This document shows positions 1 through 21,615 of a DNA stretch of 37,954 bases, piece after piece. The notes under the pieces are model-generated. The model worked only from the letters and a program-made list of their open reading frames with translations. It ran no database searches and was not told where the DNA came from. Position 1 is the first letter of the stretch, and every line of letters starts with the position of its first letter. Origin of the DNA: a virus; UHGV virus genome UHGV-0114795; one strand, written 5' to 3'. The position numbers and the translations under genes are program-made.

Positions 1-933
1 ATGGACAACGACAAAATTGATCAACACAGCGACGAAATTGAAGTTGAGAGCGAAGAAAAAGAGCGCGGCAAAAAAATAGAAATAGATGAAGACCGACTCC
101 CCTCCCGGGCGATGGCAATTCATGAGCATATCCGCCAGGATGGTGAAAAAGAGCTGGAACGCGACGCAATGGCGCTACTGTGGTCAGCCATTGCGGCGGG
201 TCTGTCGATGGGCGCTTCGTTACTGGCAAAAGGGATATTTCATGTCGAACTGGAAGGTGTGCCGGGCAGCTTCTTACTGGAGAATCTCGGTTATACCTTT
301 GGTTTTATTATCGTCATAATGGCCCGCCAGCAATTATTTACCGAAAACACCGTGACTGCGGTACTACCCGTCATGCAAAAACCGACAATGAGCAACGTTG
401 GCTTACTTATGCGGTTATGGGGAGTCGTGCTGCTGGGTAATATTCTCGGGACTGGTATTGCTGCGTGGGCATTTGAATATATGCCTATCTTCAATGAAGA
501 AACTCGCGATGCATTTGTCAAAATCGGCATGGATGTGATGAAGAACACCCCCAGCGAGATGTTTGCCAACGCGATCATTTCCGGCTGGCTGATCGCCACT
601 ATGGTATGGATGTTTCCTGCAGCAGGTGCGGCAAAGATTGTGGTGATTATATTGATGACCTGGCTTATTGCCCTGGGTGACACCACCCATATCGTGGTCG
701 GTTCTGTTGAAATCCTCTATCTGGTGTTTAACGGTACGCTGCACTGGAGCGATTTCATCTGGCCCTTCGCACTACCTACTTTAGCGGGGAACATCTGCGG
801 CGGCACCTTTATCTTCGCGTTAATGAGTCATGCACAGATTCGTAACGACATGAGCAACAAGCGTAAAGCAGAAGCACGCCAAAAAGCAGAACGTGCGGAA
901 AACATTAAGAAAAATGATAAAAACCCGGCATAA
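1..933 (+). CDS. yfdC: Formate/nitrite transporter (FNT) family inner membrane protein, host gene
   Basis: 310-aa ORF starting at ATG at position 1; multi-pass hydrophobic protein; recalled as matching E. coli YfdC, which lies immediately upstream of argW in K-12. Not verified by search. Confidence 0.8.
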   Translation: MDNDKIDQHSDEIEVESEEKERGKKIEIDEDRLPSRAMAIHEHIRQDGEKELERDAMALLWSAIAAGLSMGASLLAKGIFHVELEGVPGSFLLENLGYTFGFIIVIMARQQLFTENTVTAVLPVMQKPTMSNVGLLMRLWGVVLLGNILGTGIAAWAFEYMPIFNEETRDAFVKIGMDVMKNTPSEMFANAIISGWLIATMVWMFPAAGAAKIVVIILMTWLIALGDTTHIVVGSVEILYLVFNGTLHWSDFIWPFALPTLAGNICGGTFIFALMSHAQIRNDMSNKRKAEARQKAERAENIKKNDKNPA

Positions 934-1008
934 ATGGCGAGGGTTTAAGCAATCGAGCGGCAGCGTACTTACCCCGCACTCCATTAGCGGGTATACTCAT
1001 GCCGCATT

Positions 1009-1083
1009 GTCCTCTTAGTTAAATGGATATAACGAGCCCCTCCTAAGGGCTAATTGCAGGTTCGATTCCTGCAGGGGACACCA
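1009..1083 (+). tRNA. argW: tRNA-Arg (anticodon CCU)
   Basis: 75 nt read from sequence: acceptor stem GTCCTCT/AGGGGAC, anticodon loop with CCT flanked by stem AGCCC/GGGCT, T-loop GGTTCGATTCC, 3' CCA encoded. Known prophage integration target. Confidence 0.9.
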
Positions 1084-1244
1084 TTTATCAGTTCGCTACC
1101 ATCCGTACCAGTCCGCAAAATCCCCTTAATATCAAGCCTTCCGTAGATTCACAGTTCGTCATGGTTCGCTTCAGATCGTTGACAGCCGCACTCCATGACG
1201 GGTAAAAAGTGGATAAAATAATTTTACCCACCGGATTTTTACCC

Positions 1245-2402
1245 ATGCTCACCGTTAAGCAGATTGAAGCAGCAAAGCCGAAAGAAAAACCATACCGCCT
1301 TCTCGATGGTAATGGCCTGTACCTTTATGTCCCTGTATCCGGGAAAAAGGTATGGCAGCTTCGCTACAAGATTGACGGTAAGGAAAAAATACTGACCGTA
1401 GGAAAATATCCGCTTATGACTTTGCAGGAGGCAAGGGATAAAGCATGGACTGCGAGGAAAGACATCTCGGTTGGCATCGATCCGGTAAAAGCGAAAAAGG
1501 CTTCGTCTAACAACAACTCCTTTAGCGCCATTTACAAGGAATGGTACGAGCACAAGAAGCAAGTCTGGTCAGTAGGCTATGCAAATGAACTTGCAAAAAT
1601 GTTTGATGACGACATTTTACCCATCATCGGCGGCCTTGAAATTCAGGATATTGAGCCGATGCAACTGTTGGAAGTAATCCGCAGATTTGAAGATCGCGGC
1701 GCAATGGAGCGAGCAAACAAAGCACGCAGAAGATGCGGCGAGGTTTTCCGTTACGCTATTGTCACCGGAAGGGCTAAATATAACCCGGCACCTGACCTTG
1801 CTGACGCCATGAAGGGATACCGCAAGAAGAACTTCCCGTTTCTTCCTGCAGACCAGATCCCGGCATTTAACAAAGCACTTGCAACATTTTCAGGAAGCAT
1901 CGTATCGCTCATTGCGACCAAAGTTTTACGCTACACAGCCCTAAGAACGAAAGAGCTTCGTTCCATGCTATGGAAGAACGTCGATTTTGAAAACAGGATT
2001 ATCACTATCGACGCCAGTGTGATGAAGGGCCGCAAGATTCATGTTGTTCCTATGTCAGACCAGGTGGTTGAACTTCTCACTACGCTAAGCTCAATCACCA
2101 AACCAGTATCAGAGTTTGTTTTTGCCGGTCGCAACGATAAGAAGAAGCCAATCTGCGAGAACGCGGTACTGCTTGTGATCAAACAAATCGGCTATGAAGG
2201 TCTGGAAAGCGGTCACGGATTCAGGCATGAATTCAGCACGATTATGAACGAGCACGAATGGCCTGCTGATGCTATTGAAGTGCAACTGGCACATGCCAAC
2301 GGCGGATCTGTGCGCGGGATTTACAACCATGCTCAGTATCTAGATAAGCGCAGAGAAATGATGCAGTGGTGGGCGGACTGGATTGATGAAAAGGTAGAGT
2401 GA
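1245..2402 (+). CDS. intS: Tyrosine recombinase, P4-like prophage integrase (CPS-53/KpLE1 IntS type)
   Basis: 385 aa from ATG at 1245 (MLTVKQIEAAKPKEK...), recalled as essentially identical to E. coli K-12 IntS next to argW; ORF-track start at 1209 (GTG) is probably an upstream extension. C-terminal catalytic region with R...H..R...Y pattern. Confidence 0.85.
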   Translation: MLTVKQIEAAKPKEKPYRLLDGNGLYLYVPVSGKKVWQLRYKIDGKEKILTVGKYPLMTLQEARDKAWTARKDISVGIDPVKAKKASSNNNSFSAIYKEWYEHKKQVWSVGYANELAKMFDDDILPIIGGLEIQDIEPMQLLEVIRRFEDRGAMERANKARRRCGEVFRYAIVTGRAKYNPAPDLADAMKGYRKKNFPFLPADQIPAFNKALATFSGSIVSLIATKVLRYTALRTKELRSMLWKNVDFENRIITIDASVMKGRKIHVVPMSDQVVELLTTLSSITKPVSEFVFAGRNDKKKPICENAVLLVIKQIGYEGLESGHGFRHEFSTIMNEHEWPADAIEVQLAHANGGSVRGIYNHAQYLDKRREMMQWWADWIDEKVE

Positions 2403-2529
2403 GCGACCTTAACAACTATCGAATAGCACAAAGCCTTGCAGTCAGTACAAAGCTTTGTGTTCATCAGTTTTGTCTCATCAACCACAGTAAGTCATCGATC
2501 GATTAAGAATTTGATGATAGTTTTGTCAA

Positions 2530-4455
2530 CTATAGCAATCTTATTTCTCCACCATGAACATTTATTGGCGTCATAAGAAGCGGACTCTCTACTACGACAA
2601 ACCCATTTTCATTACTTATAACCGGAGTCTTTGATTCATCAGATGTTGAAATAACCATCGCTTTATCTCCTGCCACAACACCTAACCAAAACCATGTCCC
2701 CAAGTTATGATCTATCTTCAATGCTAAAAAAATAAGCTGTGTATCAGAGTATTGTATTTGCGTTGTCCATTTTGCTCTAGTGTCTGAACCTGAAACCTCT
2801 GTAGAGACACTTGCGCCAACTGTATGTGCAGCAGAGCTACCGTTACTCATTTTGCCGTTAACAAGCTGCGGGTGGTATTTACTGGTCTGTTTGGCTTTCC
2901 CTACAACTGAACTAAGTCCTAAATCCGGGTGGTAGAAAACTATAGTCTGGTCTACTGTGCTGGCCTCTTTAGCGGATGCAGCAGGTAGTGTTGTACCGCC
3001 TGGTTTTATATCTGTTTGCCAGTGAATGTCGGAAAGGTTGTACGGAGACCCTTCGTTAAGGTCCCACCAAACTGCCCCTCCTCCAATACGGTTATTAGGC
3101 ATAATTCTTACGTTGGTATTGTCGTCGAATGCACCAAACATTTTCATACTGCTACCGTAAATCCAGCAGTTATCCAGCGTAATGTTATTTGCGCTCGTTG
3201 CTATAACCCCATACACATTGCTTTCGTTTGACTCTATGTAGCATGAATCAAACTTGATGTTATATGCACCTGCAATCCAAACACCGTGAGTACGAAAACT
3301 TTCAATACCACAGTTGAACAGCGTAAGTGCCTCTACCGCACCTTCAAACTTAAAACCTACATCACACTCTCCTGTGTGAACCGATACTAATGGCTGAATG
3401 TTGCATTCATCAGTAAAGTGATAGCGATGCAGACCAGTAGTATATGTACCATTGCACTGAAGATTGCGAAATAAAGAGTAAAAGCAGCGCTGAGTGTAAA
3501 CCAACTGCTGGACATTTACTCCAACAATATCTGTAACCTCGCATCCAAATACATGATTCCGCAAACGTAACCCCTGATAGAAATTAATCAGTGTGGCATT
3601 GCGAATTATTGTTCCTATGGTTAGATACTCTTCACCAGACTTTCCAAATACAGAAGATATAGCACCACTAGAAGCTATATAACCAGTCTCAATGAATACG
3701 TTATTTTCGTCGGAAGTATCGTCGCGGCCTACGATGCGAGCGCCCTGAAAATCGATCACTTGCACCCGACGATTAGGGAAATTAGTTTCTTCAATGTCAG
3801 ATGGAGATTCTGAAGCCAACACATAAACTTTACCGGCGATGTAATAGCTTTTCCACGGAGTGGCTACTACTTTAACACCACCTGCACGCCACGCAGCAAT
3901 CAGAGCGGCCTGAAATGCGTGTGTGTCGTCATGCTTGCTTGGGTTATCTTCTCCGTTCAATAAGTAGGCATCGCCATACGCACCAAAGTCATCTACATTA
4001 ATTTCCTGATTAAAGTAGTCAGATGCTTTTCTGGTTGCAGCATCAGCATAAGGCTTCTTAAATGAAATATAAGAAGCACCATCATCAGATGATAAGCGCG
4101 AAGAAAGTTGATCAGGGTCATACTTCAGCACATTAGGGAAATAGAACTGCTGCGATCCATACGCATCATAAACAGCCATAGAATGGCCTTGCACAGTTAC
4201 GAACTTAGCAATCTGTCCGTTATATACCGGGTAACCAGCAGCGTTAATGATGATTGGTTGCGAAACAGGAACGTGAGAGCCGTCTTCGTTCTCCACATAA
4301 ACCTGAATCTGGTTTTCGGGATTTACCGGGTCCGTGTCAATTTTACCGATATAAATTTTACCATTAGCATTTGCTTTAAACGAGCGAGCTAAAGTAAATA
4401 ACTGACTTGGTTGTGAAACAACAACGTTGTATAATTGTTCTGGCATAATAAACAT
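2530..4455 (-). CDS. Tailspike protein: P22 gp9-like N-terminal head-binding domain fused to a divergent receptor-binding domain of unknown specificity
   Basis: N-terminus ([66 protein letters not shown]) closely resembles the P22 tailspike N-terminal domain from memory; the remainder does not resemble P22 gp9. True start may be the ATG at 4446. Confidence 0.8.
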
Positions 4456-4468
4456 TCCGGAGAAAATA

Positions 4469-4969
4469 ATGAGTAAGAGACGTCACGAGGTAGTAACTCG
4501 GGAGCGCCTTATGGAGGTTCTCGATTACAATAAAGAAACAGGAATTTTCACTTGGAAAAAGAAATTAAGCGCCAGAGGTGCTGTTGGGAAAGTTGCTGGC
4601 ACAATTTCTTATGGATATAACGCGATTAATATTGATGGCGTAAGATATTTTGCACATAGACTTGCCTGGCTGTATGTATATGGCGAATGGCCCAAACAAG
4701 AGATTGACCACATTGATAGAAACAGAAGAAATAACGCAATCTCAAACCTTAGGGATGTTAGCAGAGTCGTAAATGCATTAAATGTCGGACCTCGAAATAG
4801 CAATGCTGGAATCAAGGGGGTAACTTTCTGTCAAGCCAGAAATCAATGGCAAGCTCAGATAAATGTCTCAGGTAAAAACATAACCCTTGGGAGATTCAAC
4901 ACCATTGATGAAGCGGCTATAGCTTATAAGGCAGCAAACATGGTTGCTGACCATCTGTTGAGTAGGTAA
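4469..4969 (+). CDS. HNH homing endonuclease with C-terminal AP2-like DNA-binding domain
   Basis: HNH_3-like motif ([36 protein letters not shown]) followed by AP2-like segment ([40 protein letters not shown]). GGAG 6 nt upstream of ATG at 4469. Opposite strand to both neighbours. Confidence 0.7.
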
Positions 4970-5026
4970 TGTCTGTCATTTAATTTGCTCCAGATACAAG
5001 GAATCACCGAAGCATGGCTACGATGA

Positions 5027-5052
5027 ATTTTGGGCATAAAAAAACCCAGCCG
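5027..5052 (-). terminator. Intrinsic terminator downstream of ant (minus strand)
   Basis: Hairpin CCCAGC-CGAA-GCTGGG with a run of seven A on the plus strand (U-tract on minus strand transcript). Confidence 0.55.
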
Positions 5053-5079
5053 AAGCTGGGTCGTTGCGTTGGTTATCTG

Positions 5080-5961
5080 TCAGTAGTTATGTACTGAAGG
5101 AGGTAATTCTTTATTCTTAAGTCTCATCCATGCGGAAAGATTCGTTGGTCCGTCTGGCTCATTAATATCAACATCTCGTGTGTGGTTTATTAAAACGTCT
5201 CTCGCCATTCCGATAACATACGAGAATTCATGACCGTAGTCGTAGCATCTGCCGGAATAGTTCGATTGAATTTGTTTTAGCGCCGGATACAGTTCGCGGA
5301 ATAATGCCTGTGAGCGGTTGGCATAATCCCATAACCATACAAGGTTGTTTGCTTCTTTTGCAGAAAGCTCGTTGGTTTTCTTCTCTTGTTTGCCAATGAA
5401 CTCACCTTCAAGCACTACCCTGTGGATGTACTCTACGGCCAGCGGGATTTGTTCAATTGAAAGTTCATCAATGCTGTCAATACCAAAACGCTGATGAACC
5501 ATATTGTATGCATCGTCATAGCGAAGTCCTTTCTTTCCTACCAGCATGTTTACTGCATCGCGTAGCGGCGTTCTTTCCTCAACAGTGGTTTTCTTGCCTT
5601 TCACATACTCGCCATGTTTGCGAATTGAAGGTAGAACTTCTGCTGTTACCCACTTGCGGAATTTGTGCGGGACCGAACCTTTATTGACAGCATCGCGGCA
5701 GCGCAGAACCAATGTATACATACCTGATTCGCTAACAATGCTTAGATTCTGCTCACCACCAAGGGTGTAACTTAAAGTTACTCCCTTTTCATCGTCATCA
5801 AGTGCAGTAAGCGCCTTGCGTGAGTTAGTCAGGGTTAAAGCATCACAAACATCTTTTGCTACAAACCACGGCTCACCGCATTTGTTGATGACGCGGATTT
5901 CACTGTCGCCGAATTTGAAGATGGTGAAATCGTTTTGTGCCTTTGCTATACTTTTCATGTC
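5080..5961 (-). CDS. ant: Antirepressor (Bro-N/KilA-N N-terminal domain), P22 Ant-like
   Basis: Position downstream of arc in immI operon; N-terminal [25 protein letters not shown] pattern typical of Bro-N antirepressors. Start chosen at ATG 5961 (AGGAAA upstream) rather than the ORF-track start at 6024. Confidence 0.75.
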
Positions 5962-6026
5962 AATATTTCCTAATCCGATTTGTTGATACCGAAGCCCTGA
6001 CTGTTCCCGCAGTTGGGGCTTCAACT

Positions 6027-6188
6027 TTACGCGCCAATGCGCCCTTCCTTCTTAAAGCTTTCCATTACTCTCTGATAAATCTCAGAGTTAACAGACCGAC
6101 CATTCTCTTCCGCCACCTTGCGTACCAAATCCAATACTTCTTTAGGCCACCGCAAATTGAACTGCGGCATCTTGCTCATTCCTTTCAT
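6027..6188 (-). CDS. arc: Arc repressor (ribbon-helix-helix)
   Basis: [53 protein letters not shown], recalled as P22 Arc (53 aa) with at most one substitution; ORF-track entry 6027..6251 is an upstream extension. Confidence 0.9.
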
Positions 6189-6204
6189 ATTCACCTCACA
6201 ATAT

Positions 6205-6221
6205 AGGTCCACCGTGGACCT
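6205..6221. promoter_or_regulatory. Mnt operator (Omnt), 17-bp palindrome
   Basis: AGGTCCACCGTGGACCT read directly: perfect 8+1+8 inverted repeat in the arc/mnt divergent region, matching the known P22 Mnt operator arrangement. Confidence 0.75.
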
Positions 6222-6230
6222 ATTGAGAAT

Positions 6231-6251
6231 ATAGTAGAGTGCTTCTATCAT
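6231..6251. promoter_or_regulatory. Arc operator (Oarc)
   Basis: ATAGTAGAGTGCTTCTATCAT with TAGA..TCTA symmetry, between the arc start and mnt; matches remembered P22 Arc operator. Confidence 0.75.
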
Positions 6252-6278
6252 GTCAATACACTAACTTGGAGTGATGGC

Positions 6279-6530
6279 ATGGCTAGAGATGATCCGCACT
6301 TTAACTTCCGTATGCCTATGGAAGTAAGGGAGAAATTAAAATTCAGGGCGGAGGCGAATGGGAGATCAATGAACTCCGAGTTGTTACAAATCGTCCAAGA
6401 TGCTCTATCAAAACCATCGCCTGTGACTGGATATCGCGACGATGCAGAACGACTCGCTGATGAGCAGTCAGAGCTTGTTAAGAAGATGGTGTTTGATACG
6501 CTGAAGGATTTGTACAAAAAACCCACCTGA
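6279..6530 (+). CDS. mnt: Mnt repressor (maintenance of lysogeny; represses ant)
   Basis: MARDDPHFNFRMPMEVREKLKFRAEANGRSMNSELLQIVQDALSK... recalled as near-identical to P22 Mnt; GGAG 8 nt upstream of ATG. Confidence 0.9.
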   Translation: MARDDPHFNFRMPMEVREKLKFRAEANGRSMNSELLQIVQDALSKPSPVTGYRDDAERLADEQSELVKKMVFDTLKDLYKKPT

Positions 6531-6548
6531 AGGTGGGTCCTATTTATT
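6519..6548. terminator. Bidirectional intrinsic terminator between convergent mnt and lipoprotein gene
   Basis: Hairpin ACCCACC-TGAA-GGTGGGT flanked by AAAAAA on one side and a T-rich stretch (CCTATTTATT) on the other; the mnt stop codon lies in the loop. Confidence 0.6.
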
Positions 6549-6966
6549 AGTCTTGCTTTGTTGATGGTATAAGAGATGCGTTTGCCTCTTTTGGCTTCAA
6601 GGTATACATTCCACCATTAAATGGATCTACAGCAAGCCAACCAATTAACCCACCAAACACAAGGTTCCCACCAATATACCAACCATTAGCATTGGCTTTG
6701 ATTGGCAGGGTAACTGGTTCATACCCATCCTTCTCCATAGTGATCTGGTAGTTCTTTTTGCCAAAATAGCTACCATCTGACTTGGCGAGCGTTACACCTT
6801 GTGGGGTCCTACCTTGCGCAACAATCACACCTGACTCATCTTTTACCTTAAAGCTCGCGCCAGAAGGATTGCTGTTCACTTGCACAAGTTGCGTTTCATC
6901 ACCAACAATAGTTGCGCACCCAGATAACATCATAGCGCCAGCAACGACGCCAATAATCCTCTTCAT
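6547..6966 (-). CDS. Predicted lipoprotein of unknown function at the P22 sieA position
   Basis: Signal peptide with lipobox (MKRIIGVVAGAMMLSGC); possible PEGA-like segment (VNSNPSGASFKV); glycine-rich C-terminus. No confident homologue recalled. Start could be 6978. Confidence 0.6.
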   Translation of the reverse strand: MKRIIGVVAGAMMLSGCATIVGDETQLVQVNSNPSGASFKVKDESGVIVAQGRTPQGVTLAKSDGSYFGKKNYQITMEKDGYEPVTLPIKANANGWYIGGNLVFGGLIGWLAVDPFNGGMYTLKPKEANASLIPSTKQD

Positions 6967-7083
6967 ATCAATTTCCATATTTAAAAAACCGGAAACATCC
7001 TAATGACAAACCATTCAAATGTGAAGTAGGCAAAAGATGTTTACTTTTTTCATGGTATCCTGCTCAAAACTAAGGAGGTTGGT

Positions 7084-7272
7084 GTGAAGAAAAAATTTGT
7101 AAACGTTGCAAAGTGCGCAATTTTTATATTTTTTATGACCTTTTACGGATTTAGTGCCGGAGAAGGTTTCGATCGTGATGCCAATGCATTCAGTTTCTTT
7201 TGTCTGTCTATAGTGGTCATAATTGTATGGGTGGAATTAAAGCAAACATTGTTTCATGTGCTAAGGAAATAA
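7084..7272 (+). CDS. Small hydrophobic protein (62 aa), hypothetical
   Basis: Strong SD AAGGAGG 5 nt before GTG start; two hydrophobic segments; AT-rich codon usage unlike flanking genes. Confidence 0.45.
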   Translation: MKKKFVNVAKCAIFIFFMTFYGFSAGEGFDRDANAFSFFCLSIVVIIVWVELKQTLFHVLRK

Positions 7273-7289
7273 CCATCCATGGCATTTAG

Positions 7290-9131
7290 TCACTGCTGTG
7301 TTGCCTCAGTGGCAAGCAGCGGTCTGATGGCATTTGCAGCGTTACTTAATGCTCTTTCATAGGCTGGCGTTCCTGCTTTGGTGTTTGCCAGACGTAAGAG
7401 CGCATTCCTTGCTGCTTTGGACTCATACAAGCGCATCATTGCACCGAAACCAGCCTCAATCCCCATTGATACGCCAAGAGTCGCAGTTGCGCCAATCGTC
7501 CTTATCCTGTTGGCTTGTGATTGCCCCGTCTGAGTTACTACATTTGCGGTGTCTGACCTTGCTGTTTGCTGTAGAACTTCATGAAGAGCATCAAGCTCTT
7601 TCATGTGCTTTCCAGAAAAAATAGTGTTGTAAATTTCACCGCCTGACTGAGATTTCAGCTTATTAACTTCAGTGATGAACTTGGCTGGAGAGACACCGGC
7701 CTTTTCCGCTATTTTGCTGACGTAAGCTGCACGCATAGCATCTTTCCCTTTATCATCCAGTGCGCTCCATATTCGTTTCACGTCAGATGGTTTTCTGCTT
7801 AATACAACGGTATTTATAAGTTCAGGGCTGGCTTCACTGCTTGCCTTGTTGAGTTTGTTAGCAATGTTTTTATTAAGCACCTTATTATAAACGTTTGCAT
7901 AATCAGAATTTGCTTTAAGGTATTTTGCTGCGTCTGATGCACCGAGGTTTTTTGCAACTGCGTTACGAAGGTCTTTTGACATTGCATTCTCTACCATATT
8001 GGTAGCTGCTTTTGCCTGGTTGGGGAAGACCATAGCATCTCCCTGAACATTAGATCTAAATGCCGTTCTGTGCTGACGCAAGAGATCAAACGTAACATCC
8101 AAATCAGTTGCAGGGTTTGCTAATTCTTCACGTAGGTTACGCAAGGATGTAAGCAGGCTTTGATTGGCAGACGTCCCAAGTCGTTCCTGTCTTGCGATCG
8201 CTGTATTCAGAGCATTCATGGTATTTGTGGTATCAACTGCGGCATTACCCATTTTATTGGTGACGTCATTGATAACAGCGCCAGCGGCATCCTTCCGCCC
8301 CCTTAACGTGGTGGTCAGAGATTTCACCACATCATCAGGGTTGTACTCACCAAAACGGTCAAAATAATTGCTTACCAGCTTACTACGCGTTGCATATTGC
8401 TCCGCTCTCTTTGAGCCTGTCCCGAGCAAAGCCCCCTCGGCATCCTGAGTAAGGCCGCGAGTGAAAGCATTTTTCGGCGGGATAACATCAGATGTCATTG
8501 GTGTCACGCCCATCGATTCTGATGTGGCAATTTTCTTCGCCACTTCTGGCGCAATATCACCTTTTATAGCCGTTATTCCACGCCCTATTCCCTTTGCTGC
8601 TGCGGAAAGAACACCCTGAGCGGCAAGGTTAACTCCTGCATTTTTAGCTGCATTTTGTGCGAAATCGCCTTTCTGATTTGCGGCCTCTGCCAGTGATCCA
8701 ATAGCCATGCTTCCTGCCGTTCCAACTCCTGGAACTAAATACCCACCAATTGTTTCACCTGCTTGTGCGTAGGGGTCTGTCGGTCTGTCTACTGGACGAT
8801 AAACATCATCCAATACTTTTGGCCCACCAAGCCCCTGACTGATTGCATTAATCAGACTTGCGCCACCCTGCAATACGTCAAATGGTATGTTTACCAGACC
8901 ACGACCAGCCTGCTCTGCAATTTGCCCTGCACTTTGACCACCAGTGAGCCAATCGCCAGCTTGTTGCATCAATGATGGTTCTTCACGTGCTGGTTCATTA
9001 TTGGCCTGATTAACTGTTTGTTGCTGAACAGCCTGACCAGCAAAATACTCATCAATGGCGGTGCCAATATCTTCCGTGCTCGTACCATCAGGGAAGGTAA
9101 ATGTCTTACCGTTTGCAGTTACTTTCATCAT
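7290..9131 (-). CDS. Ejection/internal virion protein, P22 gp16-like
   Basis: N-terminus [32 protein letters not shown] recalled as P22 gp16; size 613 aa vs about 609; last gene of the 7-20-16 series; ATGA overlap with gp20 stop. Confidence 0.85.
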
Positions 9132-10507
9132 TCCACCGTAAATTGAATGCCTGATTTTGACGTGTAGCTACCTCCTGCTGATTGCTGAGTAGGCGGCTGT
9201 TGCATTGATGATTTCTTCCCTCCATTACCGACATTAACGTTATATTGCTGGTTGTAATTGTCGGTATATTGCTGAATGTCGCGCATTGATTGTTGCAGTG
9301 CTTCAGGGCTTGAGAAATCAACCTGTGGCATACCTTGAAAATACATTTTTGCTTCTGCAACGGTGTTGATACCGGATGCCCCCATGTCTCTGGCTGCTGC
9401 AATGCCCTGATTCTGCATCTTTCCTTGGATTCGCTGTGCGGCGTTGTATAGTTTCCTCTGATCACCACCAGATGCACGGCTACGAATATCTGCACCAAGA
9501 GCAGGAGAACCTGAAGAGCCTGTAATGCCAGTCATGAAGCCAAGATCGTCAATTGATGCACCAGAAATTGCATCAAGATCTTTCTTCATTGCGTAATTCT
9601 GCGCGCTTGCTGCCGATGTAGCCGGAGCGGCAATAGAGCCAGCAGGGACGCGAACCATATTCCCCTCGTTGTCGATACCTTCGTAGAACGCATTAGCCCC
9701 AGCGCCGTGAAGCTTCCCGCCTACCGTTACAGTTCTGCCATCTGCTAACTGAACTGTACGCTCATTATTCCCAACCGATCCTTTCATTGATGCTCTCTGC
9801 ATCGATAAATCCTGACCGCGCATCGTGATATTCTGACCACGTGCTGTTAGCGCCTCGCCAGCCTGATTGCTGCGGATTGTCTCTGCCAGCCTGCCTCTGT
9901 CAATTTCACGACCAGCCATCTTGTCCTGAACAGCAAACGCCTTTTCTGGTCCAAGCGCACCGAGAGACATAGTAGTCAGCATGTGTGATAGCTGCTCTGG
10001 ATTCTGAATACCTGTCTGAATCATCCAGTCAGCATTCGCACCCACACGATTTAACCTGTCCTTGTTGTCAGTAATGAATTTACTGTAGGCTTCCGGTCCC
10101 TGAGAAAGAGCGACGTTAGCCCTCATGGCTAAATCGCCCATATCGTTGCGTTGCTGATCATTAAGACCGGAAAACGCCTGTTGTGCCTGTGCAACAAACG
10201 CTGGATTTTCCTGGGCAAACTTAAATAGTCCCGATGGATCACCAGAAGCCCATGCATCAGCGTGAACCTTATTGAACGCACTAATAGCTTTCTGTTGCTG
10301 TTCCTGATTGTAAATATCAGCAACTCCAGCCAGACCACGTAACGCGGTCAGACCAACGTTATTTGCACCTGAGCGAGCCAGTTCATTGTTTTCGCGGATC
10401 AGACCAAGCGTTGCGTTAATGTCGCTTGCCTTTGGCGCATTCTCATTTTGCGTACCGATGCCAGCCAGAAAACCACCAGAATTAATACCCTGCTGCCACG
10501 TAGCCAT
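9128..10507 (-). CDS. Ejection protein, P22 gp20-like
   Basis: Synteny (between gp7 and gp16) and size (459 aa vs about 471); low-complexity Ala/Gly/Gln-rich composition typical of ejection proteins. Confidence 0.8.
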
Positions 10508-10517
10508 TGATTACCCC

Positions 10518-11213
10518 TTAATAAAGTAGTGAACCAAGCAGACCGATACCAGCACCGATACCAGCACCCCACGGAGTTGATGAACCAATTAATTTCGCAA
10601 GTCCAGCCCCAGCAATGGCACCAGACGCACCTCCGCCAATAGCAGATTGCATTGCTGATGGTCTGTTGGCGTTTGCCGCTGCAAGAGCCGCGCTTTGCTG
10701 TGAAATCTGACTCATGTTGTTGGCATATGTTTGCCCGGCATTTGCCTGCCCCTGAAGCGCACCAAGACCAATATTTGCCAGATTCTGGTAGTTGTTCATC
10801 TGACCAGATAGCCATTGCTGACCAAGCGTTGGTGCGATTGTTGCTAACTGATTACTGGTTGCGGTGGAACCCAATCCACCTGTTGCTTCCGCTGCCGCCA
10901 GACTCTGATAGCGAGCCTGACCAGCAAGATCTTTGTACTGCTGAGAGTTGTAATACTGGTTAAGTGCCTGACCTTGCCCTTCCAGAGACGATAAGTTCTC
11001 GAGGCTGCCGACATACTTCTCAGCCAGAGGAGTAAACGGCTTCAGGTTGTTCATGATGGTGTTGAACTGCTGATTTTGCAGGTCTGCTGCATACTTCTGA
11101 GCTTCTGCGGCATACTTTGCGCTTTTATCAGAACTGCCACCTTTCCCACCCTTTTCAGGGCAATAAGGTTCCTCGCCGCGCAGTTTTCTGCCCAGCTTAA
11201 ATGCATATAACAT
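10518..11213 (-). CDS. Ejection protein, P22 gp7-like
   Basis: 231 aa vs 229 in P22; synteny; Gly/Ala-rich hydrophobic C-terminus. Confidence 0.8.
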   Translation of the reverse strand: MLYAFKLGRKLRGEEPYCPEKGGKGGSSDKSAKYAAEAQKYAADLQNQQFNTIMNNLKPFTPLAEKYVGSLENLSSLEGQGQALNQYYNSQQYKDLAGQARYQSLAAAEATGGLGSTATSNQLATIAPTLGQQWLSGQMNNYQNLANIGLGALQGQANAGQTYANNMSQISQQSAALAAANANRPSAMQSAIGGGASGAIAGAGLAKLIGSSTPWGAGIGAGIGLLGSLLY

Positions 11214-11215
11214 GG

Positions 11216-11674
11216 CTATCTCCCGTGATTCAGGAAGTCGATTAGTTCTTCGCGTGTGGCGCTGTAAAAAGTCACGTCATCCACGCCTTTGAAGTATTTC
11301 TTGATGGTTCCTACACGCTTAAGGCCAATCATTGCGCAGTACATCTGCCCGTGGCGGAATTTGCGTGCAGCGAACGATGTGACGCACTGAACGGTGGTGT
11401 TAGTCAGAATGTATCGCCAGAACGCCAGCCCGATTTCCTTGCTGAAGCCGCGAATCTCTGGCAGGTACATGGCGTGGCAATCGAATGTCAGCGGCTGAAT
11501 CTCCTGATAGTAAACAATGCCGCCGAACTGCCCATGCACGTTCACCTCAAAGTAACGGCAATCAGGTTTGTAGTCGTATCCATCACCGTTATTGCTCCCG
11601 GCTATAATGTCAGGGTGATTTCCGACTGCTTCGATCAGGTCGATGTTTCGCGTTGGTTTGAACTGAATCATCAC
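11216..11674 (-). CDS. Head completion/DNA-stabilisation-related protein, P22 gp14 position
   Basis: Assigned by synteny only (between tail needle and gp7); sequence not independently recognised. Confidence 0.5.
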
Positions 11675-12519
11675 TGCTCCGCGATTATCTTGATGGTTGT
11701 GGCAGTAAACGCCGCACCATTTGACTGGATGGTTAACGTACTGCCATTTGTGGCAAGAAATCCGTCTTTATCCACGCTGAAGAACGTAGCTAACAAGATG
11801 TTATCGGTTGTTGTCGCCGAGTTGCGACTGCTTACCAGTGTGTCAGGAACAGAACCGGAAAATGTTAGCTGCATTGACCTGTTGGCGGTTCCGCTGGGCC
11901 ACGTCCCGACGATCGACAGCTTGAAGAACAAGGTTTTGTTCTCGTTGAACACAACCATCTTGTTGTTAACGGTGTCGAAGAATGGTGCCAACGTGCCGGA
12001 TGACGGCGTGAGCGTTTTCAGCAGGCTAACAAGGTTGGTCGGCGCTGTCGGGATGGTTACTGATACGCCAGAGTAAACAACCTCTGACTTTTTGCGAGTA
12101 GTGGCATACTCCAGAGCATCAATGCGCGTTTCATGGTCTGAAAGCGTGTTTTGAATGGCGACAACTTCATCAGTCAGATACTCAATATCGTTTTCTGCTG
12201 TCGTTAATCGTGAATCAAGGCCGACTATCGCCGCTTCTGCGTTAGTGATCCTTGTTTCGTGGTCCTGAATCTTAGCTTCAGCTGATGCCAGTCGAATTTC
12301 GTGATCGACAAGAATCACATCCTGCTCATCGTTCCTGACCTGCGCATGATAAGCGCCCTGTCCGGCCTCGTTGGCCTTGTTAGCCACGTTACCAACATCA
12401 GTGCCCTGTGCGATAACGTAAAGCAGATACGACTGCGAGAAGATATTGCGTGGAAGAACTGATGTATCGAGCCGCGTAGCCTGGATGATTACCGGCACAT
12501 TGAGATTCGAATCCGCCAT
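11671..12519 (-). CDS. Tail needle (P22 gp26 family) with extended C-terminal knob domain, Sf6-like
   Basis: N-terminus [62 protein letters not shown] matches remembered gp26 N-terminus; 282 aa rather than 233, with a non-coiled-coil C-terminus as in the Sf6 needle. Confidence 0.85.
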
Positions 12520-13937
12520 TACTCAATCCTTATCTGAGCGCCAGACAGAGTTACAGGTGACTTCGTGATAACGCGCAATTTGAAGCCAATGTTTTTCCTG
12601 ATGCGCCCTACTTTCTTCCACAAACCGCGTTTGTCGTAAACGAACGGTTCATTCTGCTCAATCATCTGCTCACGCCCGTAATTGATGCCGTCAGTGGTTG
12701 CAGAGAGGAACAGGCGGTCGGCGTACTGAGCTACGCCAGTGGATGATTCCACCTCCAGATCGAAGCATCTGGCGTTATCCGCTTTGAACAGTGGAGTAAA
12801 CAGCAGGTGTTCCTGTTGAAGACCATACTGACTGCTGATATCGAACTGCAATTTCCCGGTCACCGACTCCAGCTTATCGCCGCACGTTATCTGATTTCCT
12901 TCGTAAATGAAGTCAATAGCGCGGTACACATCGTCATACAGTCCTGTTTTCAGTACGCACCATTGCGGACCATTGGCGCTTGAAGATGCGTCGTACACGA
13001 GAACATGGCGAGGAAGGTGGATAATCAGCAACTCATGCGCATCAAATCGCAGAGACTCCATCACACCCTCAGCCAGTTCATCAGCAGTGTAGGAGCGGAG
13101 AATTTTCTCAATGCTCGCGCTGGCGATTGGTGATACCTGACCGGAGCCGATGATGTATACAGACGGCGCACCAGTTGCCGGATTGCTGATGAACGCATAC
13201 GAATCAGCAAACGGCGTTTTGCAGTAAGTTCCGGCAATGCCTTTCTGCACCATCAGTGATGGCTGTGCGACATACAAAGCGGCACCAACGGTGGTTGCCC
13301 CAGTCAGGGAGAAATATTCAATCGTCGATGAACCAAAGCAGACGATGAAGTCTCGCCATGTTCCTATGCCGATGATGCCATCAGGCTGAGACTCGGCACG
13401 ATATTGTGCACTGTAACGGTCAGGATGCGATTCGTCTTCAAGGTCAGTGATGAACCATGAATCAGTGCCGTCTTTTGACCACGCATAACGCCCACGTAAG
13501 CGTGTAATGTCGCGGACTGAGCCTAACTCATACTGAGTGAATCCGCTATCTGTAGGCCAGTTTGAGACGGTTTTAACCGTGCCATCATAGCGGTATTCGA
13601 CCAGTTGACCATTAACGCCTACCGCCTGTGATGTCCGACCATGCGCCATTGATACGCGACCACTTCCGGCAACATCACCGACTTCACTTTCGCCTTTGTA
13701 GAGCTTACCGCCACACACGCGATATACAGCATTCTGCGCCATGTTGTACTCGACGCCGCGAGATACGCCGTTCACATCAGAGCGTTTGGCAATGCCCGGG
13801 AATGAGCGAAGATATCCGCTGCTGTTCAGGATTTCTTTGGGTGTAGCCAGCATATTCACTGGCAGATAGTCGATATAGTCGGCGTTTCGAAAGTCTTTGC
13901 CGACACCTTTCATAAGCGGAAGTTGCTGAATCGGCAT
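12519..13937 (-). CDS. Tail/head completion protein, P22 gp10-like
   Basis: 472 aa (same as P22 gp10), synteny between gp4 and gp26. Confidence 0.8.
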
Positions 13938-14437
13938 TATTCGCTCCCGTTATCGCAAGGTTCCTTTCGGTGGAAGTAATTCCAACCGTTCCACTTCGCC
14001 AACTGGTTACCGCTACCAACAGGCATACGGTTTGGATAACCGGACTTACATTTTGCGGCTTTTGCTCTGTCCATTGCAGACAGTTTGACGAGTCGCTCTT
14101 TCCCGTATCTGGCAGTGGTTATAAGTTTTGCAGACGCTTCCAGCGCATAATCCGGAGCAATGCGGCAGGCAAGGTTGAAAATGACGGCATTTATAGCGTT
14201 ATTTGATAAGCCGTGCTCATCGCCCGGATCCGGAGCGACATCTGCATCAGCAAAAATGTAGCCAACGTTGATACCAGGTGACGCATCACCGCCAAGCCAT
14301 TCAGCCATCATCATTTCAAGGTCGTTGACGCCGTCTTCCATAGACTGCGGTTCGACATCGGTTAACGTGGCATTTGATGCCACACCGAGCTTACGTAATG
14401 CCGCAAGAACTAAATCACCCTTCGTTGTCAGGTTCAT
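13937..14437 (-). CDS. Head completion protein, P22 gp4-like
   Basis: 166 aa from ATG at 14437 ([33 protein letters not shown]...), closely matching remembered P22 gp4; ORF-track start at 14503 is an extension. Confidence 0.85.
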
Positions 14438-15008
14438 CTGCTGCCGCCTTAGGTTTTCGACCAGGCTTTTTACGCTGTTTTTCTTCTGGCTGTGGCTCTG
14501 CAATGGCCGGACGCAAACTCAGGAGTCGTCCAAGAACATCATTTGCTTCATGACCATCCCACTCTTTCCCTAACTCAAGCTCAGTACCTTCAGGAAGGAA
14601 CTCGATTTCTTCAACAGGTAGGTGATAAGTGATTTCGCCTTCTGGAGTGGTGATACCAGCAATAATCCAGCCATCCCACTCTTCACCGTCACTGTGTTTG
14701 CGAGACCACCACGAAAGCTCAGCGTAAGCATGCATCAGCGATGAGAAGAGGCGCACTCGGTGAGCGTAAAGCTCGTTAAAAGTGTGATAACCGTCGGACA
14801 CTTCGCCCATATCAACTGGGGAAGTTTCACCTCCGCCAACACTCCCAATTTGATCACCAACAAGATGATCATCAGGAACATCGTCAGGGTGCTTATACCA
14901 GCCATTTGCTAAGTGCACAGCTACATCATCAGGATCAACGGTTTTCGTTTTCAGCTTGCGCCCCCAGATTTTGGTATCTCCGCCAGCCTGAAAAATCATT
15001 ACGCTCAT
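14415..15008 (-). CDS. Hypothetical protein between coat and gp4
   Basis: 198 aa from ATG at 15008 with GGAG upstream; acidic; the ORF-track version (14415..15188) runs into the coat gene and across the terminator. Confidence 0.55.
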
Positions 15009-15019
15009 TGGTATCTCCA

Positions 15020-15046
15020 ATAGAAAAGGGAGCCTAAGCTCCCTCT
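15020..15046 (-). terminator. Intrinsic terminator-like hairpin downstream of coat gene
   Basis: GGGAGC-CTAA-GCTCCC hairpin with adjacent A-run on plus strand (U-tract on minus transcript); probably attenuates rather than fully terminates late transcription. Confidence 0.5.
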
Positions 15047-15051
15047 GGTTA

Positions 15052-16347
15052 TCACGCGGTCTGGTTAGGCAGGCCAACACCAATTGCCTCTGGTCGTACA
15101 GCACATGCTGAATACCACACAGCAATACGGCACTTACCAGACAGAGTGTTGATATCACCCTGCGTTGCGAAGATGCCGTTAACACCAATACCAGGAATGC
15201 TGAAGGAAGACGTTTTCATGCCAGCAAACAGTTCATGGGTTACCGGGATCGGCTGAGACAGCAGGCGGATTGAGTCATCAGCCCAGAACACGTTAGCGGT
15301 GGTTGTTGCCACGTTCAGAACGTTTACCGGAGTGGTATCAGCAAGAGAGGTGTTTACGTTAGCGTAAGCCTTCTCTTCTTTTGTCAGTGACGCGTCATCC
15401 AGCGCAATCGGCTTCGGCGTGATTTCGATGTGAGTACCATCGATCACACGGGTGATTGAGAAAGTCGCATCATCAGTCAGCACGTTCTTCGCCATCTGAG
15501 ACAGGAATTTCACACCAGTGAAGCTGATTTTGTCGCCGCGCTTAAATCCGGTGGTGGAGGATACGGTCACCGTTGCAACACGGTTATCGACGTTCTCTTT
15601 GTTACCATCGGTATCAAGGGTGTATGCCTGCGGCTTAAACTTCTGCGCACCAGAAACAGTTACACCAGTAGCGGTTGACTTGGTAACTGCCGGAAGTTTC
15701 GGTGAGCGAAGAATTTCATCAAAGCCAGCAATCTGACGCTGAATAGTACCGTTGCGATACGCTTCTTCAGGAACGCGCCCAAAGATGTCACCATCTACCA
15801 GGTTGCGGCCTGCTTTGCGGTAATCGTCAGGATTCAGGAAGTAACTGATGCCCATATCGCGGTTTAGCTCACGGGAGAACATCAAGCGCTCTGCATCAGA
15901 CACAAAATCCCAGCCAGACAGGCCAGTAGATGGACCAATTGCGCGGGTATCGTGAACAACAAGCGAGCCCATTTCAGTTGCCTGTTTGGCAATCGCTGAC
16001 TCAATGTTATTCGCCAGTTTTTTGGCGGATGCCTGGATGCGGCGACGGTAAGAACGCTCATCACGCAGGTCATCTGCACGAAGCTCGAAGAAATCGTTAT
16101 CCGGATCGCCCATGTTGCATTTCACGGAGAGTTCCAGAATCCCGGTTGCGTTGCCAGTTAAATCCCAGCCAGTCTGGGTTGGCGCTTCCTGCTCAACAGG
16201 CATCCACACGGTGTTGCTTGAACGCTGCATGGATTCTGCCGGAGGGGTGTATTTTGTCACTTTAGACGCCATTGGCGTCAGGTTCTGGACGGTTTCGATG
16301 ATTTCATCCAGAGCATACGTGACCAGTTGACCTTCATTTAATGCCAT
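15052..16347 (-). CDS. Major capsid (coat) protein, P22 gp5-like (HK97 fold)
   Basis: 431 aa; [23 protein letters not shown].. and long stretches recalled as about 80 percent or more identical to P22 coat. Confidence 0.9.
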
Positions 16348-17258
16348 TATCGAATTCCTTTATTCAGTTGCGCCTTGAGCTTGCGGTATGTCTCTACATC
16401 CCCTTTGTTTGCTGCCGCTTCCATCTGCTTTTCAATCGCAGAGATATTTGCAGCAACAGCGTGTCCCTGAATGGGTTCATCAGGTAACGGGGCTTCTGAA
16501 ACAGGCTTGGCTCGAGGCTTGAGAGTTAAACGTTCTGACAGTCGAGTGAGTTCAATCAGCGCGGATTGCCCGTCCATCGCCAGCAACTGGCGTGTTTTCT
16601 CAGGATTAGCACCAAGGTGATACATGAGAGCAGCGGATTTCTCCGGGAAGAGTCGCATGATGTCGGCACCGACTGCTGGCGGCACCAGTTGCATGAATGC
16701 ATCCTCTTTCTCCTGATAGTCAGGGATATTGAGCTTTTCCGCTGCGTCGTAGTGCTTACGGGCTGCCTCGACGTATTGCGCTGATTGCTGGGTGAACTCC
16801 TGAGTTTTGCGACCCTGCTCGGCAACAGCCTGGCTTCGTGCGTCCATAGCCTTGATCTGCCATTCACTGTTTGCCTGCTGGAAGGCAGCCAGTGCGCGGC
16901 TCTGGTCATAGTCGTACTTAGCCAGTGCGTCTTCGGAAAGATAATCGTTAGGGTCTGGTTGTTTTGGTAACTCAGGGTTCACCCGCAGGTGCTCCGGCAA
17001 CTCTCCACGCTTAACCGCTTCCATCTGCTGCTCAAGCTCACGCTGGCGTTTGCGTTCGATGCGGCGACGGGCAAATTCAGCATTAGTTGCCGGGTCTTGT
17101 TTTGGTTTCTCATCGTCTTTCAGGACAATCTCGAAGCCTTCTTCCTGACCTGCGTTGTCGTTGGCATTATCGACAACTAAGCCATCAGCAGATGCCGCTG
17201 CATGATTGCCGGGCAGGGTTAATTCTTCAGAAGCCTGAATGTCGGTGGTTTGGTCCAT
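16347..17258 (-). CDS. Scaffolding protein, P22 gp8-like
   Basis: 303 aa (same as P22 gp8); charged, helical, between portal and coat. Confidence 0.85.
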
Positions 17259-17271
17259 GATTAACTCTCTC

Positions 17272-20937: not shown

Positions 20938-21409
20938 GGTTGAATAGCTCCTTGATACGAGAGCGTCGCTTATCGCGATCTCCCTTATCAGGTGTCACGT
21001 CTTCAACTTGCGACTGCTCTTTGAGGCCCAAATCACGGGCGATGATGTTAGCGTTGAGAAGGTCAGCGGCTGCGCCAGAGAATTTCTGATCGTAGATGAC
21101 CTGCTCTGCTCGCGTAACGACTTCAGATAAATCTTCTCTCAGGCGATATGTGCGCCATGTTTCAAGCGTCACATCAATGAACAGAGTGAGGCCTGTAATG
21201 GTCATCGCTCGCATCTTGGCGATAGGTTCTTGTATCACTTCACCCTGATACGAGAACGCCTTCATCTCCCATAGCGGGTTAGCTTCCACCCACTCGAAGT
21301 ATTCACAACAAGCAGCCCACAGCGCCTCAGGCGATTCGAATTTAGGGTTTCGCCCATGACTACTGCGGGCCTCCCAAAATCGGTTGCCCTTTGGTGCTGC
21401 CATATTCAT
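20915..21409 (-). CDS. Terminase small subunit, P22 gp3-like
   Basis: 164 aa; ...[45 protein letters not shown]... recalled as P22 gp3; 23-nt overlap with terL start. Confidence 0.85.
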
Positions 21410-21606: not shown

Positions 21607-21615
21607 AGAGGATTC

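What the first reader, a model, noticed from the sequence alone, without database searches (positions are those of the whole stretch)
1009..2529. Prophage inserted at argW with a K-12 IntS-type integrase but no gtr/oac serotype-conversion genes
In E. coli K-12 the CPS-53 remnant at argW carries intS followed by gtr-like genes (yfdG/H/I). Here intS is followed after about 130 bp by the convergent tailspike gene, so the usual O-antigen modification module next to the integrase is absent. The region 1084..1244 contains repeated GTTCGCT/GTTCGTC motifs (1092, 1155, 1165) and an inverted repeat GGGTAAAA/TTTTACCC (1200..1244) that may be integrase arm sites or int regulatory sites.
Basis: partly seen in the sequence, partly recalled or inferred. 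Interest (0 to 1): 0.4.

Follow-up and report, generated by a model that had tools for sequence, protein, structure and literature searches.

The report
Known argW prophage integration module
This is the left end of an ordinary P22-like prophage sitting in the argW tRNA gene of E. coli, with an integrase and DNA-binding sites almost identical to a module already dissected by experiment, and it lacks the optional O-antigen-modifying genes, as many related prophages do.

Summary
tRNA-Arg(CCT) is at 1009..1083. A 385-aa integrase at 1245..2402 is 99.5% identical to K-12 IntS. After a 127-bp gap comes the stop codon of a convergent P22-type tailspike gene (2530..4455, minus strand). No Gtr, Oac or Wzy-like homologue, and no polytopic membrane protein, is encoded in the 36.9 kb of prophage visible.

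The repeats are real but already explained. The attL region is nearly identical to KplE1/CPS-53, HK620 and Sf6. By identity with KplE1 experiments, the GTTCG/GTCCG/GATCG pentamers are the five binding sites of the excisionase TorI. The GGGTAAAA/TTTTACCC repeats are the four IntS arm-type sites. Both sets overlap the intS promoter and repress it.

The 118 bp after int match the K-12 intS-gtrA spacer (91%) and break 34 bp before where gtrA would start. This is a recombination junction at an empty cassette site. Seven other E. coli prophages show int directly facing a tailspike, and one keeps 19 codons of gtrA. Only 538 of 1856 intS-carrying complete genomes have the K-12 arrangement, so the absence is common.

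The right end (xis, attR) lies outside the window. Interest is low.

The parts
1..933 (+). Host gene yfdC (formate/nitrite transporter family). This is chromosomal flank, not prophage.
   Evidence: Pfam Form_Nir_trans, E=1e-48. Window 1..1083 is 98.8% identical to K-12. Annotated yfdC in all matching genomes.
1009..1083 (+). argW, tRNA-Arg(CCT). Its last 15 bases are supplied by the prophage.
   Evidence: ARAGORN. Rfam tRNA, 63.4 bits.
1069..1084 (.). att core CTGCAGGGGACACCAT (16 bp). This is the left boundary of the prophage.
   Evidence: Identity with HK620 and Sf6 attP starts here. It is the longest stretch shared between the window's attL and K-12 attR. It equals the annotated HK620/Sf6 'attP core'. 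It occurs only once in the window, so attR is outside it.
1091..1115 (+). TorI (excisionase/RDF) binding sites I1 (GTTCG, 1091-1095) and I2 (GTCCG, 1111-1115), spaced 20 bp start to start.
   Evidence: The pentamers are identical to K-12 attL. In KplE1 these sequences were mutated and defined as TorI sites I1 and I2 (PMC2951348).
1154..1178 (+). TorI binding sites I3 (GTTCG, 1154), I4 (GTTCG, 1164) and I5 (GATCG, 1174), spaced 10 bp start to start and abutting the -35 box.
   Evidence: Identical to K-12. In KplE1, mutation of I4 or I5 abolishes TorI repression of intS (PMC2951348).
1179..1208 (+). intS promoter PintS: -35 TTGACA (1179-1184), 18-bp spacer, -10 TAAAAA (1203-1208). The transcription start is inferred at about 1214-1217.
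   Evidence: The sequence is invariant in all five aligned att regions. The boxes and the start site were determined by primer extension in KplE1 (PMC2951348). HK620 annotates the same stretch as the 'prophage excision' promoter.
1200..1244 (.). Four IntS arm-type (P') sites containing TAAA: GGGTAAAAA 1200-1208 (+; overlaps the -10 box, so P'1), GGATAAAAT 1211-1219 (+), TTTTACCC 1222-1229 (-), TTTTTACCC 1236-1244 (-).
   Evidence: Clustering of exact GGGTAAAA. Inverted repeats I13 and I17. HK620 annotates the equivalents of 1199-1220 and 1220-1245 as attP repeats. KplE1 has P'1-P'4 with a conserved TAAA, and P'1 overlaps the -10 box. Which motif is P'2, P'3 or P'4 is my inference.
1245..2402 (+). 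intS, a heterobivalent tyrosine integrase of 385 aa.
   Evidence: 99.5% aa identity to K-12 IntS, differing at T114N and L380I; 96.1% nt identity. Pfam Arm-DNA-bind_3 2-86, Phage_int_M 93-188, Phage_integrase 199-365.
1615..1622 (-). Fifth GGGTAAAA copy, inside intS.
   Evidence: Exact match. The equivalent HK620 position is annotated as an attP repeat. Function has not been tested anywhere that I could find.
2403..2520 (+). Conserved int-distal spacer. It contains a hairpin at 2427-2459, the putative int terminator.
   Evidence: 91% identical to the K-12 intS-yfdG(gtrA) spacer. 77% identical to the int-gtrA spacers of SfII, SfI, SfIV and SfV. Also present in HK620. The hairpin is seen. It is annotated as a terminator in SfII and HK620.
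2520..2521 (.). Recombination junction (empty cassette site), GATGATAG|TTTTGTCAA. Homology with cassette-bearing prophages ends here, 34 bp before the position of the gtrA ATG in K-12 and 9 bp before the tailspike stop codon.
   Evidence: Alignments. The same junction occurs in E. coli EC6 and in IMG/VR contig L014.
2530..4455 (-). P22-type tailspike gene (641 aa), convergent with intS.
   Evidence: Pfam Head_binding 4-116, E=4e-64, and Beta_helix. The N-terminus is 60% identical to Sf6 gp14. Only the N-terminal domain matches solved tailspike structures.

Best explanation
Region 1009..2529 is the attL end of a P22-like (Lederbergvirus-type) prophage integrated in the 3' end of argW. It uses the KplE1/HK620/Sf6-type recombination module.

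How it works:
- The integrase IntS recombines the 16-bp core (1069..1084) through its catalytic domain.
- Its N-terminal arm-binding domain holds four TAAA-containing P' sites at 1200..1244.
- The excisionase TorI/Xis is encoded at the other, unseen end of the prophage. It binds five GTTCG/GTCCG/GATCG pentamers at 1091..1178 to bend attL for excision.
- The intS promoter (-35 at 1179, -10 at 1203) lies inside this array. IntS at P'1 and TorI at I4/I5 therefore repress intS, which keeps integrase low in the lysogen.

Downstream of intS there is a terminator hairpin and a conserved spacer. In other prophages that spacer precedes an O-antigen-modifying cassette: gtrABC in K-12 and the Sf phages, a Wzy-like gene in HK620. 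Here the spacer is truncated at 2520 and fused to the 3' end of the tailspike gene, so the cassette site is empty.

Shown: the sequence identities, the absence of cassette genes, and the junction.
Inferred from KplE1 experiments on near-identical DNA: protein binding and repression.
Inferred only: that a cassette was once present and was lost. I put this at about 55%. The alternative is exchange of the tailspike module at this boundary without any prior cassette.
For: - tRNA and core.
- Integrase identity and domains.
- attL 1084..1244 differs from K-12 at only four positions (1098, 1127, 1138, 1150). None lies in a pentamer, a P' motif or a promoter box.
- The motifs are invariant in K-12, EC6, HK620 and Sf6.
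- Experimental definition of I1-I5, P'1-P'4, PintS and the double repression in KplE1: PMC2951348.
- The module is described as conserved among argW phages: PMC3509656.
- HK620 annotates the same repeats and promoter.
- Spacer homology and breakpoint.
- Empty sites with different breakpoints occur in EC6, MSHS 472, B4103-1, H6, E50, CH468 and Combat2C1.
- CH468 retains gtrA codons 1-19.
- No cassette genes.
- P22-like gene set and nucleotide similarity: plus sar RNA.
Against: - xis/torI and attR are not in the window. Completeness of the module and competence for excision are therefore not shown.
- Binding and repression were not measured on this DNA.
- The spacer also precedes a non-gtr gene in HK620. 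It is not specific to gtr, so it cannot prove that gtr in particular was lost.
- The paper's chromosome coordinates map onto the window with a 2-bp ambiguity. Site positions given here therefore rest on the mutated pentamer sequences, not on those coordinates.
Confidence: 0.9

Rival explanations
1. The prophage does carry a canonical serotype-conversion module, located in the unseen right end beyond base 37954.
For: The window ends inside the early-left operon. xis and attR are missing, so some prophage DNA is unseen.
Against: - In every characterised relative examined, the cassette lies between int and the tailspike (K-12, Sf6, HK620, SfII). That site is empty here.
- Five IMG/VR relatives share the window's last 36 bases and have TorI. 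In them xis starts 700-1170 bp after that point, and in L019 the core follows at 975 bp.
- None of the 34 fetched stretches encodes a Gtr, Oac or Wzy-like homologue.
Confidence: 0.03
2. The site never held a cassette. The 118-bp spacer is simply the 3' flank of int (terminator plus a mosaic boundary sequence), at which different tailspike modules or cassettes are joined by recombination.
For: - The spacer precedes unrelated genes in different phages: gtrA in K-12 and SfII, a Wzy-like gene in HK620.
- Breakpoints differ among empty-site prophages.
- The same junction travels with this tailspike next to an integrase only 61% identical.
Against: - The window's spacer stops 8-20 bp short of sequence that K-12, SfII, HK620, MSHS 472, B4103-1 and CH468 all share (GATGATAGACTTCA...). 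It is therefore truncated, not complete.
- CH468 proves that deletion of gtr does occur at this site.
Confidence: 0.4
3. The prophage still modifies the host O-antigen through a gene that is not recognisable by homology, as reported for phage Kapi1.
For: - Kapi1 is an argW-integrated P22-like phage without recognisable gtr/oac. It alters LPS, and the responsible gene was not found (PMC8787464).
- Kapi1 is the best phage match to window 1000..4600, at about 96% identity over 50% of that stretch; the aligned pieces lie towards its two ends.
- Several small ORFs here have no Pfam match.
Against: - No polytopic membrane protein and no transferase family is present anywhere in the window.
- There is no experimental evidence for this strain.
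- The tailspike receptor-binding part differs from that of Kapi1-type prophages.
Confidence: 0.1
4. The short repeats upstream of int are chance occurrences in AT-rich DNA.
For: The CAGTTCG-type motif is not enriched over the whole window: 107 seen, 106 expected.
Against: - All four exact GGGTAAAA copies cluster within 423 bp, against 0.85 expected in 38 kb.
- The five pentamers sit on one strand at spacings of 10 and 20 bp.
- All are invariant in five independent att regions.
- They were shown to be functional by mutagenesis in KplE1.
Confidence: 0.01

Closest known systems
KplE1 / CPS-53 cryptic prophage of E. coli K-12 (IntS-TorI recombination module; Panis et al. 2007, 2010)
   Same: - Same integration site and 16-bp core.
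- attL 1084..1244 differs at 4 of 161 bases.
- IntS differs at 2 of 385 residues.
- Same five TorI pentamers, four P' motifs and PintS boxes.
- Same 118-bp spacer after int, 91% identical.

   Different: - K-12 continues into yfdGHI (gtrABS) and is a 10-kb defective remnant.
- The window continues directly into a tailspike gene and an apparently complete P22-like genome.
Coliphage HK620 (Lederbergvirus HK620)
   Same: - P22-like phage with the same attP core, arm repeats and excision promoter, all annotated in its record.
- int is about 95% identical at nucleotide level.
- The spacer after int is present.

   Different: - HK620 carries a 408-aa O-antigen modification (Wzy-like) gene between int and the tailspike. 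The window has none.
- The tailspike receptor-binding domain is different.
Shigella phage Sf6
   Same: - Same attP core and arm region.
- Int is 98.4% identical.
- The tailspike head-binding domain is about 60% identical.

   Different: - Sf6 has the oac O-acetylase gene, with its own promoter and terminator, between int and the tailspike.
- Its int-distal spacer is not homologous to the window's.
Escherichia phage Kapi1 (mBio 2022)
   Same: - argW-integrated P22-like phage with the same att core.
- No recognisable gtr/oac genes.
- HNH endonuclease ORF next to the tailspike gene.
- Best phage match to window 1000..4600.

   Different: - Different tailspike receptor-binding domain.
- Different spacer breakpoint (the Kapi1-type junction of Combat2C1).
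- Kapi1 is experimentally shown to alter LPS. Nothing is known for this prophage.
Salmonella phage P22
   Same: Overall genome architecture and virion genes, about 85% nt identity over 59% of window 4400..29000. An immI region with ant, arc and sar RNA.
   Different: From established knowledge, not tested here: P22 integrates at thrW with a different integrase and carries gtrABC between int and gene 9.

Membership tests
KplE1/HK620/Sf6-type argW recombination module | Insertion in the 3' end of argW, with the 16-bp core CTGCAGGGGACACCAT reconstituting the tRNA | tested here: met
KplE1/HK620/Sf6-type argW recombination module | IntS-type heterobivalent tyrosine integrase next to attL, transcribed away from it | tested here: met
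   99.5% aa identity to IntS. Arm-binding plus catalytic domains present.
KplE1/HK620/Sf6-type argW recombination module | intS promoter embedded in attL and overlapped by TorI sites I1-I5 and IntS P' sites | tested here: met
   Sequence identity of all motifs and boxes with K-12. Their function was defined in PMC2951348. Protein binding was not measured on this DNA.
KplE1/HK620/Sf6-type argW recombination module | TorI/Xis RDF gene and attR (with P-arm GGGTAAAA repeats) at the opposite end of the prophage | not testable with these tools
   No TorI homologue and no second core copy in the window. The right end lies beyond base 37954. Relatives have xis 0.7-1.2 kb past the window end.
P22-like temperate podophage (Lederbergvirus-type) | P22-type portal, coat, scaffold, gp4/gp10 tail factors, needle, ejection proteins, and a tailspike with a head-binding domain | tested here: met
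   Pfam P22_portal, P22_CoatProtein, Phage-scaffold, P22_Tail-4, Phage_stabilise, Phage_tail_NK, P22_gp7, Inj_translocase and Head_binding. 85% nt identity to P22 and 96% to APC_JM3.2.
P22-like temperate podophage (Lederbergvirus-type) | immI region (ant, arc, sar antisense RNA) upstream of the tailspike gene | tested here: met
   Ant 5080..6024 and Arc 6027..6251. sar RNA 5960..6026, 71.6 bits.
Serotype-converting phage with gtrABC cassette | GtrA flippase, GtrB bactoprenol glucosyltransferase and a GtrC-type transferase next to int | tested here: not met
   tblastn with K-12 YfdG/H/I gives a best E of 0.18. No GtrA or GT2 Pfam hit in 49 ORFs. The int-tailspike gap is 127 bp with no ORF.
Serotype-converting phage with O-acetylase (oac) or Wzy-like gene | A polytopic membrane acyltransferase-3 or O-antigen polymerase-like protein between int and the tailspike | tested here: not met
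   tblastn with Sf6 Oac and the HK620 protein gives a best E of 0.49. No prophage ORF has three or more predicted membrane spans.

The most novel reading that the evidence does not exclude
The prophage lacks every recognisable conversion gene but still alters its host's O-antigen by an unidentified mechanism, as phage Kapi1 does. A second, equally untested reading is that the truncated cassette-promoter region left in the spacer now drives antisense transcription into the 3' end of the tailspike gene in the lysogen. Neither is excluded, and neither has positive evidence here.
Probability: 0.1. Interest if true: 0.4.

Novelty: already known. Interest (0 to 1): 0.08.

Why it matters
It matters little beyond annotation. 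The region can be labelled with confidence using the KplE1 experiments: core, five RDF sites, four arm sites, and a self-repressed int promoter. The lack of a gtr/oac cassette is a common state of this mosaic boundary, not an anomaly. One modest point is that the int-distal spacer and its variable breakpoints mark a recurrent recombination site. At that site, O-antigen-modifying cassettes and tailspike modules are gained and lost together, which is relevant to how phage receptor specificity and host serotype co-evolve.

Tried and rejected
1. I first assumed that HK620 was a precedent for direct int/tailspike juxtaposition. Its record shows a Wzy-like O-antigen modification gene there, so I dropped that and sampled E. 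coli genomes instead.
2. The generic promoter/terminator scan did not detect PintS, because its -10 box (TAAAAA) fails the scan's T-at-position-6 rule. It also missed the int terminator hairpin, which has no T-run. It found no promoter in the window spacer or in the K-12 int-gtrA spacer. Whether the spacer holds the cassette promoter therefore remains untested.
3. Mapping the paper's chromosome coordinates onto the window gave a 2-bp inconsistency. An ATG at '2464.565 kb' places the TorI blocks exactly on the pentamers. The reported T/A start sites fit only with an offset 2 bp larger. I therefore anchored the sites on the mutated sequences.
4. I tried to recover the source contig's right end from IMG/VR. 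The junction pattern hit one contig (L014), but its stored locus ends inside int (the alignment reaches back only to about window 1341), and it lacks the window's right-end 36-mer. The true right end was not obtained.
5. Window-wide enrichment of the TorI-type heptamer is nil. Only local clustering and conservation support those sites.
6. I did not run large protein-database or structure searches, because the answer did not depend on them.

Full report
**What is there**

The window starts in host DNA. yfdC occupies 1..933 (Pfam Form_Nir_trans), and window 1..1083 is 98.8% identical to K-12. argW, tRNA-Arg(CCT), follows at 1009..1083. The ORF 1209..2402 contains the 385-aa integrase, which starts at ATG 1245. 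It is 99.5% identical to K-12 IntS (two substitutions) and 98.4% identical to Sf6 Int. It has arm-binding, central and catalytic domains. After a 127-bp gap with no credible ORF comes the stop codon of a convergent tailspike gene (2530..4455, minus strand), which has a P22 head-binding domain and a beta-helix.

The rest of the window is an apparently complete P22-like genome:
- an immI region with ant, arc and sar RNA;
- ejection proteins, needle, gp10, gp4, coat, scaffold, portal and terminase;
- lysis genes, Q, the nin region, DnaB/O replication genes, a cI-type repressor, N, RecT and others.

It is about 96% identical at nucleotide level to phages APC_JM3.2 and IME10, and about 85% to P22, over 56-59% of a 24.6-kb query. 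The source genome is not among 5426 complete E. coli genomes. The closest prophage end is in strain EC6, at 92%.

**The att region**

Aligning 1009..1260 with K-12 CPS-53 attL, EC6 attL, and HK620 and Sf6 attP shows that phage-type sequence begins at 1069. The 16 bases CTGCAGGGGACACCAT (1069..1084) are the only stretch shared between this attL and K-12 attR. They equal the annotated attP core of HK620 and Sf6. The core occurs once in the window, and no TorI/Xis homologue is present. attR and xis therefore lie beyond the right end.

From 1084 to 1244 the window differs from K-12 at four positions: 1098, 1127, 1138 and 1150. None of them falls in a motif.

The published dissection of the near-identical KplE1 attL (Panis et al. 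2010, PMC2951348) explains them:
- **TorI sites.** GTTCG, GTCCG and GATCG pentamers are the five binding sites of the excisionase TorI. I1 and I2 are here at 1091 and 1111. I3, I4 and I5 are at 1154, 1164 and 1174.
- **IntS arm-type sites.** Four TAAA-containing P' sites bind the N-terminal domain of IntS. They are here at 1200-1208, 1211-1219, 1222-1229 and 1236-1244.
- **Promoter.** The intS promoter has TTGACA at 1179 and TAAAAA at 1203, with a primer-extension-mapped start a few bases downstream.
- **Regulation.** P'1 overlaps the -10 box. I4 and I5, next to the -35 box, are required for TorI repression. Both proteins repress intS.

HK620's record independently annotates the same repeats and promoter, including a fifth copy inside int that corresponds to window 1615-1622.

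On statistics, all four exact GGGTAAAA copies in 38 kb lie within 1200..1622, against 0.85 expected. The pentamer-type motif is only locally clustered. The refinement is that the GTTCG repeats belong to the excisionase.

**The missing cassette**

No homologue of GtrA, GtrB or GtrS (K-12 YfdG/H/I), of Sf6 Oac, or of the HK620 Wzy-like protein exists anywhere in the window. No relevant Pfam family appears among 49 ORFs. A family-independent hydropathy screen finds no prophage ORF with three or more membrane spans.

The 127-bp gap is informative:
- Positions 2403..2520 are 91% identical to the K-12 intS-gtrA spacer and about 77% to the int-gtrA spacers of SfII, SfI, SfIV and SfV. The same sequence is also present in HK620.
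- It contains a hairpin at 2427-2459, annotated as the int/excision-transcript terminator in SfII and HK620.
- Homology ends at GATGATAG|TTTTGTCAA (2520/2521). This is 34 bp before the K-12 gtrA start and inside sequence that the other spacers still share. Nine bases later the tailspike ORF ends.
- The identical junction is present in EC6. It is also in one IMG/VR contig whose integrase is only 61% identical in protein.

**How unusual is this?**

It is not unusual. EC6 and six further sampled E. coli genomes have intS directly convergent with tailspikes of 611-824 aa. The gaps are 127-286 bp and the spacer breakpoints differ. CH468 retains the first 19 codons of gtrA, which is a clear deletion scar.

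Of 5426 complete genomes, 1856 have a full-length intS. Only 538 have K-12-like int-spacer-gtrA contiguity, and 373 records are at least 99% identical to the K-12 query. One caveat is that megablast would miss divergent gtrA alleles.

Kapi1 is a published argW-integrated P22-like phage without recognisable conversion genes (PMC8787464). The literature describes gtrABC clusters as highly mobile among prophages (PMC2629481). My initial assumption that HK620 had an empty site was wrong: it carries a Wzy-like gene there.

**The unseen right end**

Thirty-four IMG/VR stretches share the window's final 36 bases. In the five that also have TorI, xis begins 700-1170 bp further on. In L019 the core follows at 975 bp. 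No stretch encodes a Gtr, Oac or Wzy-like protein. By analogy, about 1-1.5 kb of prophage is missing from the window, which leaves no room for a cassette. This is inference, not observation.

**Verdict**

The feature is an already characterised recombination module attached to a common empty state of a mosaic cassette site. Whether a cassette was lost here (about 55%) or the tailspike module was exchanged at this boundary (about 40%) cannot be settled from one sequence. Interest is low.

Noticed in passing
window 5960..6026 (+), with 5080..6024 (-) and 6027..6251 (-): There is a complete P22-type immI region. sar antisense RNA (Rfam RF00262, 71.6 bits) overlaps the start of an antirepressor gene (Bro-N + P22_AR_C), next to an Arc-family repressor gene.
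   Followed up: partly
window 4427..4969 (+): An ORF with HNH_3 and AP2 domains (homing-endonuclease-like) lies immediately upstream of the tailspike gene, is divergent from it and overlaps its start. An HNH endonuclease is annotated at the same place in Kapi1-type prophages such as Combat2C1.
   Followed up: partly
window 2530..~4100 (-), tailspike residues ~120-641: The receptor-binding part of the tailspike has no sequence relative among solved structures; only the head-binding domain matches. Only one of 5426 complete E. coli genomes (EC6, about 92% nt) and one IMG/VR contig carry it. In EC6 the C-terminal ~100 codons are notably more diverged, at 71-81% nt. This is probably a rare O-antigen specificity.
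   Followed up: partly
L012 (E. coli CH468) 1804..2041: The int-tailspike gap in this genome keeps the full spacer plus the first 19 codons of gtrA (MLKLFAKYTSIGVLNTLIH, then a stop). This is a clear scar of gtr cluster deletion at this site.
   Followed up: yes
L014 (IMGVR_UViG_2880350357_000005), reverse complement 1..3100: The same spacer/tailspike junction and tailspike type sit next to an integrase only about 61% identical in protein to IntS. The junction therefore seems to travel with the tailspike module rather than with int.
   Followed up: partly
L006 (phage E212) 1703..5565: A homologue of the int-distal spacer (84% over 115 bp) lies 108 bp from the tailspike stop codon. The annotated integrase there is on the opposite strand, 620 bp away. 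This suggests that the integrase was replaced while the spacer was kept.
   Followed up: no
window 27508..28098 (-) and 33524..33724 (+): Two accessory genes likely to counter host restriction: an MT-A70 family DNA methyltransferase in the nin region, and a Ral antirestriction protein in the early-left operon.
   Followed up: no
window 7030..7272 (+): A short ORF in a low-GC patch (35% GC at 7001-7200), between the ant moron and the gene-16 homologue, has two predicted membrane spans and no Pfam match. It could be a small membrane moron such as an exclusion protein.
   Followed up: no
window 11671..12519 (-): The tail needle carries an Sf6-type C-terminal knob domain (Phage_tail_NK, E=2e-109), unlike the P22 needle.
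   Followed up: no
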